A DNA stretch of 64,000 nucleotides, taken from a virus (taxonomy: Duplodnaviria; Heunggongvirae; Uroviricota; Caudoviricetes). The notes below the pieces were generated by a model that did no database searches, was not told the DNA's origin, and saw nothing but the letters and a program-made list of their open reading frames with translations. The stretch spans positions 32,626 through 96,625 of the IMG/VR virus record IMGVR_UViG_3300037156_000269, one strand, 5' to 3'. Position numbers and translations under genes: made by a program. Positions 2,580 to 61,088 of the stretch are shown here, in pieces (position 1 is the stretch's first letter; every line of letters begins with the position of its first letter).

Positions 2580-5500
2580 ATGCGTACATTTTCCGGTTCC
2601 GACCAGTTCCAAGAATTGCAAAAAGTCGTCCTTGATTCCTACTCCAAGCTTTTCCCTGTGGAGAAAAACGGCTTTCGTTTAGAGCTCGGTAAGATGTGGC
2701 TGGACGACGAGGCTGTCGAGCCTGGAGACTTCACGACGCAGAAAAAGGTGAAGCTTGCCGGCAACACGTGGGGCGCGCCGCTTTACGCATCTCTTGTCCT
2801 CAAAGATGCTGACGGAAAAATCGTCGATCACTTAGAGAAAACTAGACTTGCTACCATCCCCAGACTTACCCCCCGCGGCTCCTACATCGTAAAGGGCAAC
2901 GAGTATCAGGTTGCAAACCAAATGATCCGTAAGCCAGGTGCCTACGTGGTGAAGTCGCAAAAGGGCGACCAGTTTAAAGGCATGCTCGCCCTCACCGGCG
3001 ATCGTCAGCAAAACTTCGAAGTTCACTTTGATACGACGACCAACAAGTACAAAGCAAAGCTCGGACAGTCCTTTATCCCCCTATACCCACTCCTGAAATC
3101 CTTGGGCGCGAGTGACAAGGAAATGGTTTCTGCGTGGGGAGAGAAGATCTTCACAGCGAATAAATCCGAGCGACCGACCGATTATTTTAAGCTCTCCGAG
3201 AAACTTGCCAGGGCACCGCGTACCGACAACCAACAGACAGCTATTGAAGCCATCCAGGCTTACGCAAAAACGGCCAAGGTTGATCCTAATATCACCAAGC
3301 TCACAATGGGTCATGCTTACGAGAACCTAAGCCACGGCCTCTTGCTGGACACCTCAAAGAAAATTCTTAGCAGCTATCAGGGCAAAACAGAACCGGACGA
3401 TCTCGAGAACCTTTTGTTCAAAGAGATCCGCTCTGTTGAGGATATGCTTCAAGATAGATTAGGAAGCAAAAAAGAACAAGATGGTCTAAAGCGAATGCTC
3501 ACACGCCACCTTGGGCGCAAGACATCCATCAGATCTCTCATTGATTTTAAGAAGCTCACAAGTCCTGTGGAGTCATTCTTTACGTCTGACAACAGAACAG
3601 CTACCAGTGAACAGTACAACCCCATTCACATGATCGCGGAGCAAAATAAGCTTACCATACACGGCACAGGCGGTATCACGAGTTCGCACGCTGTAAGCCA
3701 ATCTCTTCGCGAGGTGCATCCATCGCACATCGGATTTATCGATCCTGTGCATACACCGGAATGCTATGACGGCATGACTGAAGTTTTTACCAAGTCTGGG
3801 TGGAAAAAGTGGACTGATGTGACGGTCTCTGACAAGTTTGCTTGCCGCATCGAAAACACTTTGGAATTTCACGAAGCCAGTGCTTTCCACAAAAGCCATT
3901 ACAAAGGACTGATGTACGGGTTCAAAAATAACAAAGTAGATTATTTAGTAACACCCAATCACAGAATGTTTGTACAGGCAAATGATCCGAGCTCAGAGTG
4001 GAGAATCGAGACTGCCGAAAAGACGCACCTAAAAAATAGAAGACTTACCTCAGCGCATTTTCCGTTTTCTGGTGACACTTCAGCTACTCACTTCACACTT
4101 GAAAGAGTTGGCGGCTCTTCGTCGACTGTAAATTTCGACCGAATAAATATAGAGGACTGGTGTGAACTGGTTGGATGGGTTTTGTCAGAAGGTTGTGTTG
4201 TAAATAAGAAATACGGATCAAAGTATTCTTATGCGCTTAAAATCGCACAAAATGAAAAAGCCAATCCAGAGAAGTGCGCCAGAATAAAAGCACTGCTATC
4301 TAGACTGCCCTGGAGATGGTGTCAAAATACTGCAAAAACTGACTTCATAATTGGAGTTAAGCAACTTGCCATGCAATTCAAGGAACAAGGTTATTGCTAC
4401 GAAAAGTTCATTCCAGAATATCTCTTCGAGGCTCCTGTGCAGGCGCGAGAGCGCATGCTGGAAGCTCTTTTGTTAGGGGATGGGCGCACATTTAGTCACA
4501 GAGTTACTGGAGTTTCTTACGAGCAAAAAGTCTACACTACCACAAGCAAGGAGTTGGCCATAGGCGTAGAAAGACTTGCCATAGGTCTAGGATATGGGGT
4601 CAAGACAGCCGTCTATCAAGATAACCGTCAAGAGCACTATAGGGACATGTTTGAAATCCGTCTTTTGAGTCACGGTGATAGAACACTTCGTGCAAATTAT
4701 TACTACACTACAGATTTCAATGACACAGTTTATTGTGCTACAGTGCCTGGCAGCCTCCTTCTTGTTAGACGAAACGGCAGCGTTCCGATCTGGCTCGGCA
4801 ATAGTGATAAAACGGGCACGACACTGCATTTAGCGAGCGCTGTTGTAAAAGATGGGCGCAACATTCGCACGTTTGTTCGCAACGTAAAAACAGACAAGAT
4901 GGAGCTTCTAACTCCACAGGAAATCTACTTTAAGAACGTGGCGTTTCCAGATGAGTATGTTGGTGGCAAGTTCAAGAACGCATCTGGCGTTCGTATCCAA
5001 GCGCAGGGTAAAGTGGACATGGTTCCATCCCACAAGGTGGACTACGCCCTTCCGCACCCGACAGCTCTTTTTAGCCACTCAACAAACCTTGTTCCATACC
5101 TGAAAAACGACCAAGGTAATCGCGCCATGATGGCAGCAAAAATGATAGGACAAGCCATTCCGCTTGTCGACCGCGAAGCGCCGCTTGTTCAAACTGCTAT
5201 GCCAGACGGCAAATCATTTCATGAAGAGATTGGCAGACAGTTTTCGATCCAGTCACCCCATGCTGGTAAAATCACAGCCGTGCACTCGGACTACATCATG
5301 GTCGATAAGACCAAGATTCCTGTTTATAATAACTTCCCCCTTAATCAAAAAACTCAAATGCATCACACAGCTCTCGTGAATGTGGGCGACGAAGTTAAAA
5401 AAGGTCAGCTCTTAGCTGATTCGAACTACACGAAAAACGGCACTCTCGCTATTGGCAAGAACCTCACCGTGGCCTACCTGCCGTACCCTGGCTACACCTT

Positions 5501-12084: not shown

Positions 12085-12097
12085 CTTATACCAGGAA
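12085..12097 (-). promoter_or_regulatory. Class-E promoter motif TTCCTGGTATAAG
   Basis: Motif variant upstream of a non-coding region. Confidence 0.5.
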
Positions 12098-21587: not shown

Positions 21588-23294
21588 ATGAGTAATTCAG
21601 AACAAGAAGAGATGTTGGATGAGCTAGGGTCGGCGAATCCATATGAAGCCAATGCTGCGGCTCAAAAAAGAGCCGTCTACGATCAGAAGGCTGCCCGCGG
21701 TTTATCAGAGGCCACGAAAACTTTGATAAAAGCTTTGAAGACAAAGTGGGTTAGCACTCTAATTTATCTTGATGGAAAGCAGTTTAGTTTCGCCGGGCGG
21801 AATTATTTGTATCCAATTTACAACGGGTTCTACCCACGCAAGATTTTAAAGTTCGCGCGTCAGTCAGAGAAGTCTACTTTTCTCGCGAACGACATGATCG
21901 TGAACTGTGCAGTGACCCCTTATACGAAGTCCATCTACATCGCGCCATCGCACTCGCAAGTAAGACAGTACTCAAACGGCAAGTTGAAACCCTGGACCAC
22001 AGACTCTCCCATCTTAAAAAAGTTCTTCCTCTCCACCAGTGTCAGTGATCAGGTTTTTGAAAAAGGTTTCACCAACGGCTCGATGATGTTTTTGAGGTCG
22101 GCTTTTTTGAATGCCGATCGTGTGCGGGGGCTAAGCGGGACTGAACTCTATCTGGATGAGCTACAGAATATTTTATCCTCTAATATCCCTGTTATTTTAG
22201 AAGTCTTGTCCCATGCCGAGAGTCCGCAGGTGACCTACTCTGGTACGCCTCTCACAAATGACAATCCTATTGAGTCGATGTGGGCTAAATCATCGCAGTG
22301 TGAATGGCTGGTCCCGTGTACACGGCACTCACCAACTCACTGGAATTATTTAGACACGCGCAATATCGGTAAGACGGGTCCTATCTGTAACAAATGCGGC
22401 AAGGGAATTAATCCTGCTTTCGGAAAGTGGTTTAAGCTTTCGGCCCAAGACGATATCATGGGGTTCCACATATCTCAGCTCATGGTTCCGTGGATGCAGT
22501 CCCCTACAAAGTGGAAAGAACTTCTGTTTAAGTATGAGACTTACTCCACAGGTCAGTTTGCAAATGAGGTTTTGGGGGTCAGTTATGACTCAGCCTCTAA
22601 GCCGGTCACGCGCACCGATCTTATCGCCTGCTGCTCATCGAAACATCCATTCAGAAAATCACCAGACAACTACACAAATTCACTTACTTTGTTTGCAGGG
22701 GTTGATTGGGGGGAGGGTGTGGATGGCTCTGAAATAGGAGTTAAGGGCAGACTAAAAAATGCCAGTTACACAGTTCTTACCATCGGTGCTTACATCACTC
22801 CAAAAATCTTCCATGTGTTCTACATGAAACGCTACACCGGTGAAGAAGCTATGCCTGGTAATTGTGTTCGTGACATCATCCAGATCTGTAAACAAATGGG
22901 TGTTGCCTGCATGGGCGTAGATTGGGGCCATGGCTGGGGTGTGAACGAGCAGCTCGAGCTTGCTTTTGATAAGCCAGGCCACAAACGAGTGGTTAAGTTT
23001 CAGTATGTTGGGATGCAGAAGGAACGTAAAAAGTATGATGGCATAGGTGTAAAGTACCAGCTCAATCGTACAGAAGTCATGACAGATTTCTTTGAGGATT
23101 TAAAGCGACAGCGGTATCTCTTTCCGGACTGGGAAACCATGAAATCATTTCTTATGGACATCGAGCACATTCATGCGGAATACGCGACAAGCGGCACGCT
23201 CAAGTACGATCACAGAACGTCGGAACCTGACGATGCGGCTCACTCAATTATTTTGTGTCGCGAGGCTGCGGATAACTATTACGGGAAGCAGTAG
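21588..23294 (+). CDS. terL: Terminase large subunit
   Basis: ATPase motifs FARQSEKST and LYLDELQN, SGTP coupling motif; RNase H-like nuclease FAGVDWG..DDAAHS. Confidence 0.9.
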   Translation: MSNSEQEEMLDELGSANPYEANAAAQKRAVYDQKAARGLSEATKTLIKALKTKWVSTLIYLDGKQFSFAGRNYLYPIYNGFYPRKILKFARQSEKSTFLANDMIVNCAVTPYTKSIYIAPSHSQVRQYSNGKLKPWTTDSPILKKFFLSTSVSDQVFEKGFTNGSMMFLRSAFLNADRVRGLSGTELYLDELQNILSSNIPVILEVLSHAESPQVTYSGTPLTNDNPIESMWAKSSQCEWLVPCTRHSPTHWNYLDTRNIGKTGPICNKCGKGINPAFGKWFKLSAQDDIMGFHISQLMVPWMQSPTKWKELLFKYETYSTGQFANEVLGVSYDSASKPVTRTDLIACCSSKHPFRKSPDNYTNSLTLFAGVDWGEGVDGSEIGVKGRLKNASYTVLTIGAYITPKIFHVFYMKRYTGEEAMPGNCVRDIIQICKQMGVACMGVDWGHGWGVNEQLELAFDKPGHKRVVKFQYVGMQKERKKYDGIGVKYQLNRTEVMTDFFEDLKRQRYLFPDWETMKSFLMDIEHIHAEYATSGTLKYDHRTSEPDDAAHSIILCREAADNYYGKQ

Positions 23295-23296
23295 GT

Positions 23297-23330
23297 AAAA
23301 AAAACCCACCCCTTTTTACGGGGGTGGGTT
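23297..23330. terminator. Terminator closing the periodic array (minus strand), possibly bidirectional
   Basis: aacccacccc / ggggtgggtt 10-bp stem; T8 follows on the minus strand. Confidence 0.8.
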
Positions 23331-24260
23331 GCCGCAGAACGTCACTGCGCAACACTATGCCCATGCTTTACAGCACGTCACCCTGCTCTGCAAAAGCCCA
23401 ACAATGCGACACTGCACCGTGACGAAGCTTCACGATAATTCACACTGCCATGCCGCTGCAGAACCATACTTGACCCCACCTCATCATGCCAATGCTTCAC
23501 TCGGATTCAACAAAACTGCGCCTCATTTTACCGTGACGAGGCTTCACTAAGCCGCAGCTCACCTTGCCAACACTTCACGTTGCTGTGCTACACCTTGACA
23601 TCACTTCACCGTAGCTCACCTTGCCAAAACAAAACAGGACCCAACGGCGCCTTACCAACGCGAACCTAGACCAAGCTTTACGATACCGCCGCACAACACT
23701 ACTCCACTTTACTGCTGCTATTCTAGACCGTACATTGCCAACGCTAAACCGCACGCCACCTCATCATGCCCATGCCATGCTAGACGCTGCTTCACCTTAC
23801 CCATGCACTACCTGACCTAACTAAACTATGCTGGTACGAGGCCATACTCCACCTCACTCCACAACAACAGCACAATACTCGGCCGTACTAAAACAATGCT
23901 GAACTGAACCTTACCACTGCTTTACAGCACCTATGCATTACCTAACGTCACCTCACCCTACCAATACCGATCTGGACTATGCAGAACTCTGCTATGCCGA
24001 TGCCTTGCGAAACCATGCCACACCTCGCTATTGCATGAGACCGCCACACAGAACCACTGCTCAGCATCACCTCGCCTCACCATACCAACGCGTTACCGGG
24101 CTTAACCACGCAGACACTTTGCAGAGCCTTACAACACCGATGCCTGACTTTACATCACCAATGTGATACTCTAGACTACTTTACCATTACAGACCTGTAC
24201 GACACTCCGCCTCGCCTCGCCACGACCGTACATTGCTTCACATCACCATTACTTTACAAG
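23331..24260 (-). repeat. Non-coding 5-nt-periodic (NN-NGY)n array, candidate guide-RNA array
   Basis: Minus strand parses as CT TGT AA AGT AAT GGT GA TGT GA AGC AA TGT AC GGT CGT GGC GA GGC GA GGC GG AGT; register persists for ~930 nt. Confidence 0.85.
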
Positions 24261-24266
24261 TTTGGT

Positions 24267-25142
24267 TTATTGGACGGTCGGTTGCTGTTCGGCAGTTGCT
24301 GTCTTTTTACGGAGTGGAATATCGACTTCAGCGTTGATGCACTTAATCTCGCTGGAAAACATACCTCTACCACTATTGCGCCATTGTCCTAACCCATTGA
24401 AATATTGGCCATATTCGAAAATATCGAGAAGGAAATCCTCTGTCAGTTTCGAGTTCTTTAAGACACGCAAATCAAACTCAAACTCTGTTCCGGGTTCAAT
24501 GACTTCAGACTTGGCCAGCGTCACGCGGGGGCCTTGAGCTGTGATCACGCGGAGTGAGCGCTCAAGGAAATAAGGCGTTCCGTCGGCGTTGCGCTTTAGA
24601 TCCTTGTTGGCCACGATGAACGGGTTTACACATCGCACTTGAGTGTTGATGATCTCATGAGTGTAGGTAGCCGATTGGAGGATTGTGCCATTCTTCTTTT
24701 CTCGGACTTGGCACAATGTCTTCGCTGCGGCCTTCATGTATCCGTAGATCATGTGATCTCCGATGCACGGACGGTTTGTTTCTTTATCCCAGAAGAAGAT
24801 TGTCGCACCTTTTAGATCTAGACTCTGGAAGGTTTCTTTCAGCGCTTCGAGTTTACCGGTCAAAGCCATATCGCGCTGCTCAGGAGTGAATGTGTAGCCA
24901 ACGACGGTCTCTAGGCTGTCCACGAGGCGAGACAATTCCTCATCGCCCTTTTCAGCAGAGATTTTCATCTGTCCGAGGTATTTATTGACCGCTGTGTTCA
25001 CGTCACTCTTGTCGAGAATGAGCTCGCGCTGCTTCGAGAGGATGTGAGTGTTGTGGATGTGCGGATCGGACGGGTTGGTTGCAAGCATCTCTCTTAGAAG
25101 AGTGAGCTTGATGTGATACAGATCAAAAATAGTTGCACGCAT
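24267..25142 (-). CDS. Solitary Cas7/RAMP-superfamily protein
   Basis: RAMP-type pattern: N-terminal strand IKLTLL..LAT, helix IGDHMIYGYMKAA, SEVIEPGTEFEFDL, C-terminal Gly-rich loop GLGQWRNSGRGMF. Confidence 0.8.
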   Translation of the reverse strand: MRATIFDLYHIKLTLLREMLATNPSDPHIHNTHILSKQRELILDKSDVNTAVNKYLGQMKISAEKGDEELSRLVDSLETVVGYTFTPEQRDMALTGKLEALKETFQSLDLKGATIFFWDKETNRPCIGDHMIYGYMKAAAKTLCQVREKKNGTILQSATYTHEIINTQVRCVNPFIVANKDLKRNADGTPYFLERSLRVITAQGPRVTLAKSEVIEPGTEFEFDLRVLKNSKLTEDFLLDIFEYGQYFNGLGQWRNSGRGMFSSEIKCINAEVDIPLRKKTATAEQQPTVQ

Positions 25143-25198
25143 GGAAGACTCCTAGCCTTAAAGGCTGTTAAAAGTTGTAACACGATCGTTACAAAACA

Positions 25199-25211
25199 CT
25201 TATAACGGGAA
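25199..25211 (-). promoter_or_regulatory. Class-E promoter motif variant TTCCCGTTATAAG
   Basis: 57 nt upstream of the RAMP gene and downstream of a terminator. Confidence 0.45.
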
Positions 25212-25227
25212 TTGTTTATTTTGTGAC

Positions 25228-25254
25228 AGCTAAAAAGAAGCCCCGAAGGGCTCC
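25228..25254 (-). terminator. Intrinsic terminator with UUCG loop
   Basis: Minus strand GAGCCC-TTCG-GGGCTT then CTTTTTAGCT. Confidence 0.75.
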
Positions 25255-25260
25255 TAAAAA

Positions 25261-27970: not shown

Positions 27971-28954
27971 CTATGGTTTGGGCGCCTTATTTGCTACGTA
28001 TTTGTAATGCCTTTCATGCTCTTCAATGATGATGAGCTTCGTCTGACTTAGACCAGGCCCGCACGGTTGCCATCTCAAATGTGTGCTCACGGTTGTGGAG
28101 TCTACCGAGTACTGCCTGTCTTTGCCGAAGCTCCAGTTGAGGAGAGACACGGTATAAACAGAACTTCTTAACCCAACGTTTGTTTTGTTAGCCTCTTTCT
28201 TCTCTCTGCTACTCAGCTCCCTTATGGGCTTGAGATCAGATACGTCTGGATTCAACGAGTGAACGTACATGGATAGGTTTAGAAAAGTTCTGAAAATATT
28301 GTCTTGCACATCTGATCTCGGATTGCCTAAGTGAGCGTTCTCATTTCCATGCAGGTTGTCTAAAGAAGTTTCGAACTTATCCCCCGCCTTGACTTCCAGA
28401 CACACCCAGCCAGCGTTCCCGAACGTTCCTGAGATCGGACCGGTCGTATCTGATTTTGTGGTGTAGCCTACCTTGAGAAGCAGCCTATCTTCCGCCCACG
28501 GGCTCTTTATGAACGACACGTAAGCCCCGACAAGATTGTCGCCGTCGTGGTCATACATAACTCCAGGCTCGAAGGAGAAATAGGCCATGAAGCCGGGTTT
28601 TGGCAAAAGCTCTTCGCGAAGCTCTACGTCCATCCTTTGCATGGCTTTAAGAAAATCTGGATTCACTTTATAGATTTTAGAGTTCTCAGCTTGCCGGAAG
28701 GACTCAAACATACCGCAGAGGGCAACATCAAATTCAACTGAGACTATTGCTGTTACAACTTTTGCGTGCTGGGCGCCGGCCTTCTTAACCTCTTCCCAGT
28801 TTATGTCCCTCTCGGCACTGAAGTCTTTTCCCTTGATATAACTTAAAGAAGTGGCTTTACCAACAGTGCGCAGAGCTTTGAATGAGAACTTGTCCAGGTC
28901 GGTCCCCAGGTTCCCGGCGTAGAAGTAATAATCTGGATGCATCAATGACTTCAT
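27971..28954 (-). CDS. Phage protein with C-terminal HLRWQPCGPG motif
   Basis: 327 aa; AAGGAGG SD; motif recalled from phage hypothetical proteins. Confidence 0.65.
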   Translation of the reverse strand: MKSLMHPDYYFYAGNLGTDLDKFSFKALRTVGKATSLSYIKGKDFSAERDINWEEVKKAGAQHAKVVTAIVSVEFDVALCGMFESFRQAENSKIYKVNPDFLKAMQRMDVELREELLPKPGFMAYFSFEPGVMYDHDGDNLVGAYVSFIKSPWAEDRLLLKVGYTTKSDTTGPISGTFGNAGWVCLEVKAGDKFETSLDNLHGNENAHLGNPRSDVQDNIFRTFLNLSMYVHSLNPDVSDLKPIRELSSREKKEANKTNVGLRSSVYTVSLLNWSFGKDRQYSVDSTTVSTHLRWQPCGPGLSQTKLIIIEEHERHYKYVANKAPKP

Positions 28955-29044
28955 GAATCCTCCTTATAAATAAGTTTTGTTTTAAGTAGAAAATAAGAAA
29001 CCCCGAACGCATAGCCGATTGGCTAAAGCTCAGGGCTTTTAAAA

Positions 29045-29085
29045 AGATACTATTTTATCTTCACTAAACTTATACCAGAAAAAGG
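29045..29085 (-). promoter_or_regulatory. 41-bp duplicated promoter module, copy 2
   Basis: Contains TTCTGGTATAAG; 3 mismatches to copy 1. Confidence 0.7.
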
Positions 29086-60871: not shown

Positions 60872-61088
60872 AATAAATCTCCTTTGTGTATTATCTTGTA
60901 TAAAATAGAAGTCCTACACGCAACTTATATCTGGAAAGTGATGGTTTGTGCCACGCAGAAAATGATCAGTATAATGACCACTTCGGGCCTTAATGTCCAA
61001 TATACTGATCATTCTGCGCCGCGCGTGTCAGTTAAATGGTTGTTTAGGCCCGTAAGATGGAACTTTAACTATTTTACTGCCAAGTGGC

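What the first reader, a model, noticed from the sequence alone, without database searches (positions are those of the whole stretch)
23297..25211. Candidate minimal RNA-guided system: solitary Cas7/RAMP gene plus 5-nt-periodic non-coding array in one transcription unit
SEEN: on the minus strand, a promoter motif (25199-25211), a 291-aa gene (24267-25142), a ~930-nt array starting within ~10 nt of its stop, then a strong terminator (23297-23330). An upstream terminator (25228-25254) insulates the unit. The array reads as alternating variable dinucleotides and conserved NGY, mostly GGY, triplets (e.g. AA TGT AC GGT CGT GGC GA GGC GA GGC GG AGT). KNOWN: the protein has RAMP features, including the C-terminal Gly-rich loop GLGQWRNSGRGMF; Cas7-type RAMPs polymerise along crRNA with a fixed nucleotide step per subunit. 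INFERENCE: the RAMP filament binds each NGY as a scaffold and presents the NN pairs as a gapped, non-contiguous recognition code for nucleic-acid targets such as competing phages or host genes. This is not a repeat-spacer CRISPR array. I recall a very recent description of phage systems with this architecture (named VIPR) but cannot verify it here, so novelty must be checked.
Basis: partly seen in the sequence, partly recalled or inferred. Interest (0 to 1): 0.96.

Follow-up and report, generated by a model that had tools for sequence, protein, structure and literature searches.

The report
Phage VIPR guide-RNA system
An uncultured 175-kb peat phage carries a complete VIPR system, the CRISPR-related RNA-guided DNA silencer first described in 2026 preprints: one Cas7-like protein gene followed by about 33 short guide-RNA modules built from 5-base repeats, so it is a well-supported new example of a known kind.

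Summary
On the minus strand lie a promoter-like element, a 291-aa gene (24267-25142), a 927-nt non-coding array (23333-24259) and a strong terminator. An upstream terminator insulates the unit.

The protein model has a Cas7/Csm3 RAMP fold. Its five best AlphaFold-DB cluster matches are exactly the five founding Vipr proteins named in the VIPR preprint (bioRxiv 10.64898/2026.04.26.720920).

The array is made of NN-DGY pentamers (G 91%, Y 97%; only about a third are GGY). It is punctuated 32 times by a one-base register shift, giving 33 blocks of mostly 5-7 units. This fits the preprint's "staggered" vrRNA arrays.

The same architecture sits beside homologues in 21 of 24 viral loci and 50 of 80 MAG or genome loci, on the gene's strand. 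Related arrays keep G and Y and change NN block by block.

There is no vap gene, no cas gene and no second array in the genome. I found no targets: own genome, relatives and one IMG/VR scan all gave chance-level hits. Transcription of the array is not shown.

This scan has already noted VIPR-like loci in at least 50 other genomes.

The parts
25236..25255 (-). Upstream intrinsic terminator that insulates the unit from the preceding small genes
   Evidence: 8-bp stem with 5 GC pairs and a T run. A hairpin plus T run sits at the same place in L024 and L001.
25199..25228 (-). Promoter-like element: TGTCAC, 18 nt, TATAAG (inferred)
   Evidence: Read from the sequence. The TxTCAx ... GTTATrAGT arrangement is kept in WIN, L024 and L001. 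It is not called by the sigma-70 consensus scan. The 13-mer recurs weakly at 12085 and 60924.
24267..25142 (-). vipr gene: 291-aa Vipr-family RAMP (P0001). It has an RRM core, an alpha-helical bundle (about 29-108), a thumb hairpin (about 192-215) and a G-loop 250-260 (GLGQWRNSGRG).
   Evidence: AF2 model pLDDT 79.8. Foldseek PDB top 50 are all chains of CRISPR effector complexes (types III and VII), mostly Csm3-size subunits, best E 1e-6. VIA Z 12.5 to Cas7/Csm3. AFDB top 5 are the founding Vipr entries. hhalign to SUSP1 Vipr gives E 6.7e-5 over the G-loop. One copy in the genome.
23333..24259 (-). vrRNA array: 165 GY anchors in NN-DGY pentamers, 33 blocks of mostly 5-7 units. Each block is set off from the next by a one-base register shift (Y NNN G G Y).
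   Evidence: No ORF. No excess RNA structure, z = -0.09. No Rfam family and no hammerhead.
23295..23330 (-). Intrinsic terminator that ends the unit directly after the last block
   Evidence: 10-bp stem with 7 GC pairs, then a T run. A similar hairpin ends the array in L024.

Best explanation
This is a vap-less VIPR system with a 'staggered' guide array.

Shown here:
- One transcription-unit-like stretch holds a Vipr-family RAMP gene and, from about 8 nt after its stop, a 927-nt array of NN-DGY pentamers.
- The array is broken into 33 blocks by a one-base shift, where one G can be read as the last fixed G of one block and the first fixed base of the next.

Inferred by homology with the SUSP1 and P. 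fulva systems studied in the preprints:
- The array is transcribed with the gene.
- Vipr protomers bind one per pentamer. They hold G and Y in protein pockets and expose the two N bases.
- Each block acts as a short guide of 5-7 NN pairs (10-14 specified bases) that pairs with double-stranded DNA reading NNx NNx, one skipped base per unit.
- The bound filament blocks transcription of genes of competing mobile elements or of the host.

My own inference:
- The register shift breaks the 5-nt spacing that the filament needs, and so marks where one guide particle ends and the next begins. It replaces the 3' tail or ribozyme that other VIPR types use.
- The degenerate first triplet base (G in only 32%) goes with the change of the SUSP1 G1-reading Asp177 to Gln253, which holds through nearly this whole clade. 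The G2 and Y contacts (W254, R255, M131) are kept.
For: Protein:
- RAMP fold with thumb and G-loop.
- The five best AFDB clusters are A0A1F4YLN4 (E 1e-16, 26% identity), A0A2D6XG06, X1U2U4, A0A661D0E2 and A0A0F9A1L0. These are the five proteins the preprint names as the founding Vipr hits.
- The G-loop aligns Q253/W254/R255 to SUSP1 D177/W178/R179, and M131 to M72. The cryo-EM preprint assigns these residues to G1, G2 and Y.

Array:
- G slot 91%, Y slot 97%, other slots variable.
- GY spacings are 120 of 5 nt, 30 of 6 nt, 12 of 10 nt and 2 of 11 nt.
- As a control, the same detector finds four uninterrupted vrRNAs of 12-15 units at the SUSP1 locus, as published.

Co-occurrence:
- Same-strand arrays with the same +1 shift lie beside homologues in 21 of 24 viral loci.
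- They also lie beside 50 of 80 prokaryote or MAG loci, against 1 of 80 on the other strand. 634 of 701 shifts are +1.
- Block size pooled over loci: 5 units x103, 6 x138, 7 x52.

Evolution:
- In the closest relative (82% aa, 74% nt in the gene) an array sits at the same place but does not align.
- L014 against L015: G slot 1 of 144 changed, Y slot 18 of 145 (14 are C/T swaps), N slots 62 of 518. The N changes are clustered by block (0 of 2000 permutations reach the observed variance), with single blocks replaced.
- L010 against L013 differ by one 31-nt block.

Context:
- No Cas1, no Pfam RAMP hit, one vipr and one array in a genome that CheckV rates 100% complete.

Literature:
- Staggered arrays, degenerate triplets and a type without vap are described or implied.
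Against: - No target was found, so the key functional step (NNx recognition of DNA) is untested for this clade.
- Guides of 10-14 specified bases are much shorter than the studied ones (12-15 units). Each would have chance sites in a bacterial genome.
- No RNA evidence covers the array. The only RNA-library contig lies inside the gene, and such libraries can hold DNA.
- The figure for staggered arrays could not be seen. I equate 'one-base overlap' with the +1 shift from the legend alone.
- The N-terminal and thumb residues could not be aligned to SUSP1 with confidence.
Confidence: 0.88

Rival explanations
1. The array is not cut into 33 short guides. It works as one or a few long Vipr-coated RNAs, the extra base at each shift is bulged out, and neighbouring blocks read neighbouring parts of one long target.
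For: There are no tails, ribozymes or hairpins between blocks. Single blocks carry little information (10-14 bases). The published binary filament has six protomers per turn, and six is also the commonest block size, so the shift could be a structural feature rather than a boundary.
Against: Blocks behave as independent modules in evolution: there is a single-block indel of 31 nt, and single blocks are replaced between otherwise identical neighbours. The preprint's legend speaks of individually processed vrRNAs in staggered arrays. Block sizes vary from 3 to 9 units, which does not fit a fixed structural ruler.
Confidence: 0.1
2. The system is a VIPR relative that regulates the phage's own genes or targets RNA, rather than silencing DNA of competitors.
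For: The locus sits between the terminase gene and a tail-fibre operon of a large phage that has its own RNA polymerase. Published Vipr filaments can also pair with RNA in vitro.
Against: No block matches the phage's own genome better than shuffled guides under any skip rule from 0 to 3. The preprint found no self-targeting. It also reports that RNA targets gave incomplete filaments without the triplex.
Confidence: 0.07
3. The gene is an orphan CRISPR Cas7 remnant, and the periodic tract is a simple-sequence repeat with no guide function.
For: The fold is that of Cas7. PADLOC gives only faint type IV Cas7 matches (E 0.016).
Against: The gene and array travel together across phyla, on the same strand, down to 25% protein identity. 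G and Y are held while N changes. The nearest relatives are Vipr proteins, not Cas7 of any CRISPR type. The genome has no cas gene.
Confidence: 0.02

Closest known systems
VIPR systems with staggered vrRNA arrays, probably the vap-less type (bioRxiv 10.64898/2026.04.26.720920, fig. S18 legend and type classification)
   Same: A Vipr RAMP gene with a same-strand array of 5-nt units. Neighbouring guides share one base, so the end of one marks the start of the next. There are no cas genes, and the element is phage-borne. The text lists vap genes for types II-VII only, so a type without vap is implied.
   Different: I could not see the figure or the tables. The match to 'staggered', and to a given type number, is therefore inferred. 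The numbers given here are not in the text I could read: blocks of mostly 5-7 units, 33 blocks, +1 shift in 90% of cases, block-wise replacement.
Type II VIPR of Escherichia phage SUSP1 (KT454805.2; Vipr 28474-29061, vap1, four vrRNAs)
   Same: The RAMP fold. The G-loop GxG(D/Q)WR with the Trp and Arg that hold G2 and Y. The helix-1 Met. A 5-nt unit with fixed G and Y.
   Different: SUSP1 Vipr is 195 aa, against 291 aa here (this protein has a larger helical bundle). SUSP1 has vap1; this locus has none. SUSP1 vrRNAs are 12-15 uninterrupted GGY-NN units with a structured 3' tail. Here the blocks are 5-7 units with no tail. The first triplet base is fixed G in SUSP1 and degenerate here. Asp177 is Gln here.
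VIPR arrays with non-canonical units, such as WGT/NN or TGH/NN (bioRxiv 10.64898/2026.10.21.760802)
   Same: A pentamer with one degenerate position inside the fixed triplet, found next to a Vipr-like fold.
   Different: [quoted passage not shown] Nothing in the passages I read mentions register shifts.
Class 1 CRISPR backbone subunits (Csm3, Cmr4, type VII Cas7)
   Same: RRM core, thumb hairpin and glycine-rich loop (Z up to 12.5). These proteins polymerise on a guide RNA with a fixed step.
   Different: The step is 5 nt, not 6. There is no repeat-spacer array, no Cas6, Cas5, large subunit or Cas1-Cas2. Three bases per unit are hidden on the guide, against one skipped base on the target. No Pfam or NCBIfam Cas model matches.

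Membership tests
VIPR (Vipr + vrRNA) | Vipr-type minimal RAMP: RRM core, thumb, glycine-rich loop | tested here: met
   AF2 model. Foldseek PDB top 50 are all chains of CRISPR effector complexes, types III and VII. VIA Z 12.5. G-loop GLGQWRNSGRG lies between the last helix and the last strand.
VIPR (Vipr + vrRNA) | Closer to described Vipr proteins than to CRISPR RAMPs | tested here: met
   AFDB cluster ranks 1-5 are the five founding Vipr accessions of the preprint. CRISPR RAMPs follow from rank 6. hhalign to SUSP1 Vipr gives E 6.7e-5.
VIPR (Vipr + vrRNA) | Adjacent same-strand array of 5-nt units with a fixed trinucleotide (GGY or a related consensus) and variable NN | tested here: met
   NN-DGY with G 91% and Y 97%. 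It is the only such array in 175 kb. The preprints allow YNNNG and degenerate triplets.
VIPR (Vipr + vrRNA) | Fixed bases conserved and NN hypervariable among related arrays | tested here: met
   L014 against L015: G 1 of 144, Y 18 of 145 (mostly C/T), N 62 of 518 changed. The array of the 82%-identical relative does not align.
VIPR (Vipr + vrRNA) | No CRISPR array and no cas genes in the locus | tested here: met
   No Cas1 and no Pfam RAMP hit in the genome. Neighbours are terminase, small hypothetical genes and a collagen-like tail fibre.
VIPR (Vipr + vrRNA) | vrRNAs are expressed and co-purify with Vipr | not testable with these tools
   Only a 195-nt RNA-library contig inside the gene. Nothing can be said for the array.
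VIPR (Vipr + vrRNA) | Natural DNA targets that follow the one-base-skip rule (NNx) | tested here: inconclusive
   Hits are at chance level in the phage's own genome, in relatives' loci and in one IMG/VR scan. Guides of 10-14 bases are too short for database-wide searches.
VIPR (Vipr + vrRNA) | Accessory vap gene (typical, not universal) | tested here: not met
   No conserved neighbour across 24 loci, and no DNA-binding or nuclease gene beside the unit. The preprint lists vap genes for six of its seven types.
Type II VIPR (SUSP1 / P. fulva clade) | Guides of 9-16 uninterrupted units, each capped by a conserved structured 3' tail; vap1 | tested here: not met
   Blocks have 3-7 units (one of 2 at the array's start), there is no tail and no excess structure, and there is no vap.
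Class 1 CRISPR-Cas | Repeat-spacer array with Cas6/Cas5/large subunit and adaptation genes | tested here: not met
   Period 5 only. No Cas1. No Cas family model matches the protein. PADLOC gives only faint hits.

The most novel reading that the evidence does not exclude
In this large Vipr clade (G-loop QWR), guide length may be set by the array itself. A single shared G every 5-7 pentamers stops the filament, so that each particle is about one helical turn (six protomers) and needs no tail, ribozyme or processing enzyme. A phage then carries a library of 30-45 very short guides that act together. Guides turn over one block at a time, through an exchange or acquisition route that is not yet described.
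Probability: 0.25. Interest if true: 0.55.

Novelty: new member of a known kind. Interest (0 to 1): 0.3.

Why it matters
The class matters. VIPR is a newly described RNA-guided DNA recognition system with a gapped code and a proposed link to the origin of CRISPR. This locus adds little to that.

What it does add is a clean, complete example of the less studied architecture: no accessory gene, no guide tails and very short guides, in a large environmental phage. It also comes with several numbers:
- Block size is mostly 5-7 units.
- The register shift is +1 in 90% of cases.
- The Asp-to-Gln change in the G-loop goes with loss of the first fixed G.
- Related arrays differ by replacement of single blocks.

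These points could guide experiments on how such arrays are divided into guides and how new guides arise.

Tried and rejected
1. Family libraries (Pfam, PHROGs, NCBIfam) gave no hit for the protein. PADLOC gave only faint type IV Cas7 hits. The PDB sequence search found nothing relevant. Vipr structures were not in the PDB copy searched.

2. The phage collection held no near DNA match and only four distant protein matches.

3. Self-targeting: each block was scored against the 175-kb genome under skip rules 0-3. Mean best mismatch was 1.9 for real guides against 2.0 for shuffled ones, so there is no signal.

4. Cross-targeting: 230 guides of 6 or more units from all the arrays were scored against the phage's own genome and 24 relatives' loci. 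There were 11 perfect hits, against 2-13 in shuffles.

In the 80 loci returned, the other guides gave 19 extra perfect hits, against 22-26 for shuffled guides. These are chance hits. I made no further scans, because 14 specified bases cannot beat chance in that collection.

6. NN composition fits sense codon positions 1-2 slightly better than other models (-3.81 against -3.95 bits per NN). But the non-pairing D slot has a similar A-rich, C-poor make-up, so I do not count this as evidence about targets.

7. The RNA fold of the array shows no excess structure, z = -0.09. Rfam shows no hammerhead or other family.

8. RNA runs: only one contig in a metatranscriptome, inside the gene. The array has no cover, which says nothing either way.

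10. I did not try to match decoded guides to protein motifs.

Full report
**What is there**

On the minus strand the sequence reads as follows:
- a terminator hairpin (25255-25236);
- TGTCAC, 18 nt, TATAAG (25228-25199);
- AGGAG, then 6 nt later the ATG of a 291-aa ORF (25142-24267);
- about 8 nt after its TAA, a G-rich tract down to 23333;
- a 10-bp GC-rich hairpin with a T run (23330-23295).

The tract has no ORF of 60 aa or more on its own strand, nor of 84 aa or more on either strand, even if TAG is read as a sense codon. That check was needed because this phage carries an amber suppressor tRNA, according to earlier notes.

**The periodicity is real and has a second level**

- Same-base autocorrelation is 0.40 at lag 5 and 0.39 at lag 10. 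The peaks then move to 16, 21, 26, 31 and 36. The G spectrum peaks at 5.17 nt, which is 31/6.
- A phase-tracking model shows why. The unit is a pentamer with G in slot 4 (91%) and C or T in slot 5 (97%). After every few units the register moves on by one base, always in the same direction, 32 times.
- Measured between successive GY pairs, the spacings are 5 nt (120 times), 6 nt (30), 10 nt (12, one degenerate unit) and 11 nt (2).
- This gives 33 blocks of 2 to 7 units, mostly 5, 6 or 7.
- At a shift the sequence reads Y NNN G G Y. The base before the new GY is G in 23 of 30 cases. That G can therefore be read both as the last fixed G of one block and as the first triplet base of the next.
- Elsewhere the first triplet base is G in only 38 of 120 units. 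The unit is DGY-NN, not mostly GGY-NN.
- The detector finds this array and nothing else of 50 nt or more in 350 kb of both strands of the genome.
- The array has no more RNA structure than shuffled copies, z = -0.09. It matches no Rfam family.

**The protein**

- No Pfam, PHROGs or NCBIfam model matches it.
- It has a large family in metagenomes: 241 hits in the word-indexed search and 1,112 clusters at 50% identity with E up to 0.001.
- An AlphaFold2 model built on 52 homologues has mean pLDDT 79.8.
- Foldseek against the PDB gives 97 matches at E up to 0.001. The top 50 are all chains of CRISPR effector complexes (types III and VII), mostly Csm3-size subunits.
- The Foldseek-independent search gives Z 12.5 to type VII Cas7 and to Csm3, followed by Cmr4, Cas7-11 domains and type IV and I Cas7.
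- Against AlphaFold-DB clusters the five best matches are A0A1F4YLN4 (E 1e-16, 26% identity), A0A2D6XG06, X1U2U4, A0A661D0E2 and A0A0F9A1L0. These are exactly the five entries that the VIPR preprint lists as its founding non-CRISPR RAMP hits.

**The literature**

VIPR is described in bioRxiv 10.64898/2026.04.26.720920:
- A Vipr protein with vrRNAs of alternating GGY and NN.
- Targets in double-stranded DNA that read NNx.
- Silencing of competing mobile elements.
- Seven types, with 'staggered arrays with overlapping vrRNAs', ribozyme arrays and alternative units such as YNNNG.

The companion cryo-EM preprint shows one protomer per repeat. G1 is read by H17 and D177, G2 by R138 and W178, and Y by M72, E71 and R179 of the next protomer. 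The guide-only filament has six protomers per turn.

Two later preprints extend the class. One of them reports triplets degenerate at one position.

**Comparison with the studied system**

- I located the SUSP1 locus in KT454805.2. The 195-aa gene at 28474-29061 has H17, E71-M72, R138 and D177-W178-R179 at the published numbers.
- My detector finds four uninterrupted arrays of 12-15 units there, as published, each followed by a hairpin tail. This serves as a positive control.
- Profile alignment of this family to SUSP1 Vipr gives E 6.7e-5 over the last strand, helix and G-loop. It places Q253, W254 and R255 on D177, W178 and R179.
- A multiple alignment through intermediate homologues agrees and places M131 on M72.
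- The G2 and Y contacts are therefore kept. The Asp that reads G1 is Gln in nearly the whole clade, and the RNA has lost the fixed G1. This correlation is my inference.
- The N-terminal and thumb contacts could not be aligned with confidence.

**The gene and the array travel together**

- Of 23 IMG/VR loci and one Logan contig that encode homologues (82% down to 25% identity), 21 have a same-strand array of 87 to 1,221 nt next to the gene (L017 is cut by the contig end), with the same +1 shifts.
- The other three show a period-5 signal in a cruder scan.
- Of the 80 best loci from 185,579 species genomes, 50 have such an array of 100 nt or more on the gene's strand, and one has it on the other strand. 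634 of 701 shifts are +1.
- Pooled block sizes peak at six units: 5 x103, 6 x138, 7 x52.
- The hosts of these contigs span many phyla.

**How the arrays evolve**

- The closest relative has 82% protein identity and 74% DNA identity in the gene. Its array, of about 0.9 kb at the same place, does not align apart from the first 25 nt or so.
- Two near-identical arrays, L014 and L015, differ at 1 of 144 G slots, 18 of 145 Y slots (14 are C/T swaps) and 62 of 518 N slots.
- The N differences are clustered. 13 of 29 blocks are unchanged, and two blocks differ at 12-13 positions while their neighbours are identical. None of 2,000 permutations reaches the observed variance.
- L010 and L013 differ by a 31-nt indel, which is one block of six units plus one base.
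- Blocks therefore behave as modules. This favours reading each block as one guide.

**Context**

- The genome is a 175,117-bp virus record from peat that CheckV rates 100% complete.
- It has one vipr, one array, no Cas1 and no Pfam RAMP hit.
- The gene downstream, on the other strand, is the terminase large subunit. Upstream lie two small genes of unknown function and a collagen-like tail-fibre gene.
- No neighbour is conserved across the 24 loci, so I see no vap gene.
- The preprint lists vap genes for types II to VII, which implies that one type has none. Assigning this locus to that type is an inference.

**What is not shown**

- I found no target in the phage's own genome, in relatives' loci or in IMG/VR. 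With 10-14 specified bases per guide, database-wide searches cannot beat chance.
- The array has no RNA evidence. The only RNA-library contig (195 nt, identical) lies in the gene at 24726-24918.
- I could not see the figure for staggered arrays. [quoted passage not shown]

**Verdict**

The system is a member of a class already in print. This scan has also noted VIPR-like loci in at least 50 other genomes, including a look-alike of this protein. I rate it as a new member of a known kind, with modest interest.

Noticed in passing
L014:3660-4519 against L015:3660-4478: Two near-identical arrays differ by replacement of single blocks of the same length (12-13 of about 18 variable bases changed) between unchanged neighbours. 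This points to guide turnover one block at a time, by a route that is not described.
   Followed up: partly
L010:3738-4204 against L013:3738-4173: The two arrays differ by a 31-nt indel, exactly one block of six pentamers plus one base.
   Followed up: partly
L016:2148-2817 and 3645-3853; also L030, L069, L087: Some homologues have arrays on both sides of the vipr gene, or two arrays, unlike the single downstream array here.
   Followed up: no
P0017 and P0047: Two different homologues (56% and 51% identical to the window's protein) are listed from a contig of the same length, 152,471 bp. One phage may therefore carry two vipr genes.
   Followed up: no
L080 (Promethearchaeota MAG), L029 and L037 (Saccharibacteria MAGs): Homologues of this Vipr clade lie on contigs binned with an Asgard archaeon and with CPR bacteria. 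The Saccharibacteria loci have arrays, while L080 showed none with my detector.
   Followed up: no
window 12085-12097 and 60924-60936 (minus strand): Variants of the TTCCnGnTATAAG motif found upstream of vipr recur at these two places. The enrichment is weak (4 matches against 1.3 expected).
   Followed up: partly
window 21588-23294 (+): The terminase large subunit gene (PHROG 675, E 7e-57) converges on the array's terminator. The same gene lies beside the array in L001, L004 and L005, which probably reflects shared phage synteny.
   Followed up: partly
window 24726-24918: A peat metatranscriptome run from another study holds a 195-nt contig identical to this part of vipr (word depth 13.9). 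This hints that the phage, or its transcript, was present there.
   Followed up: partly
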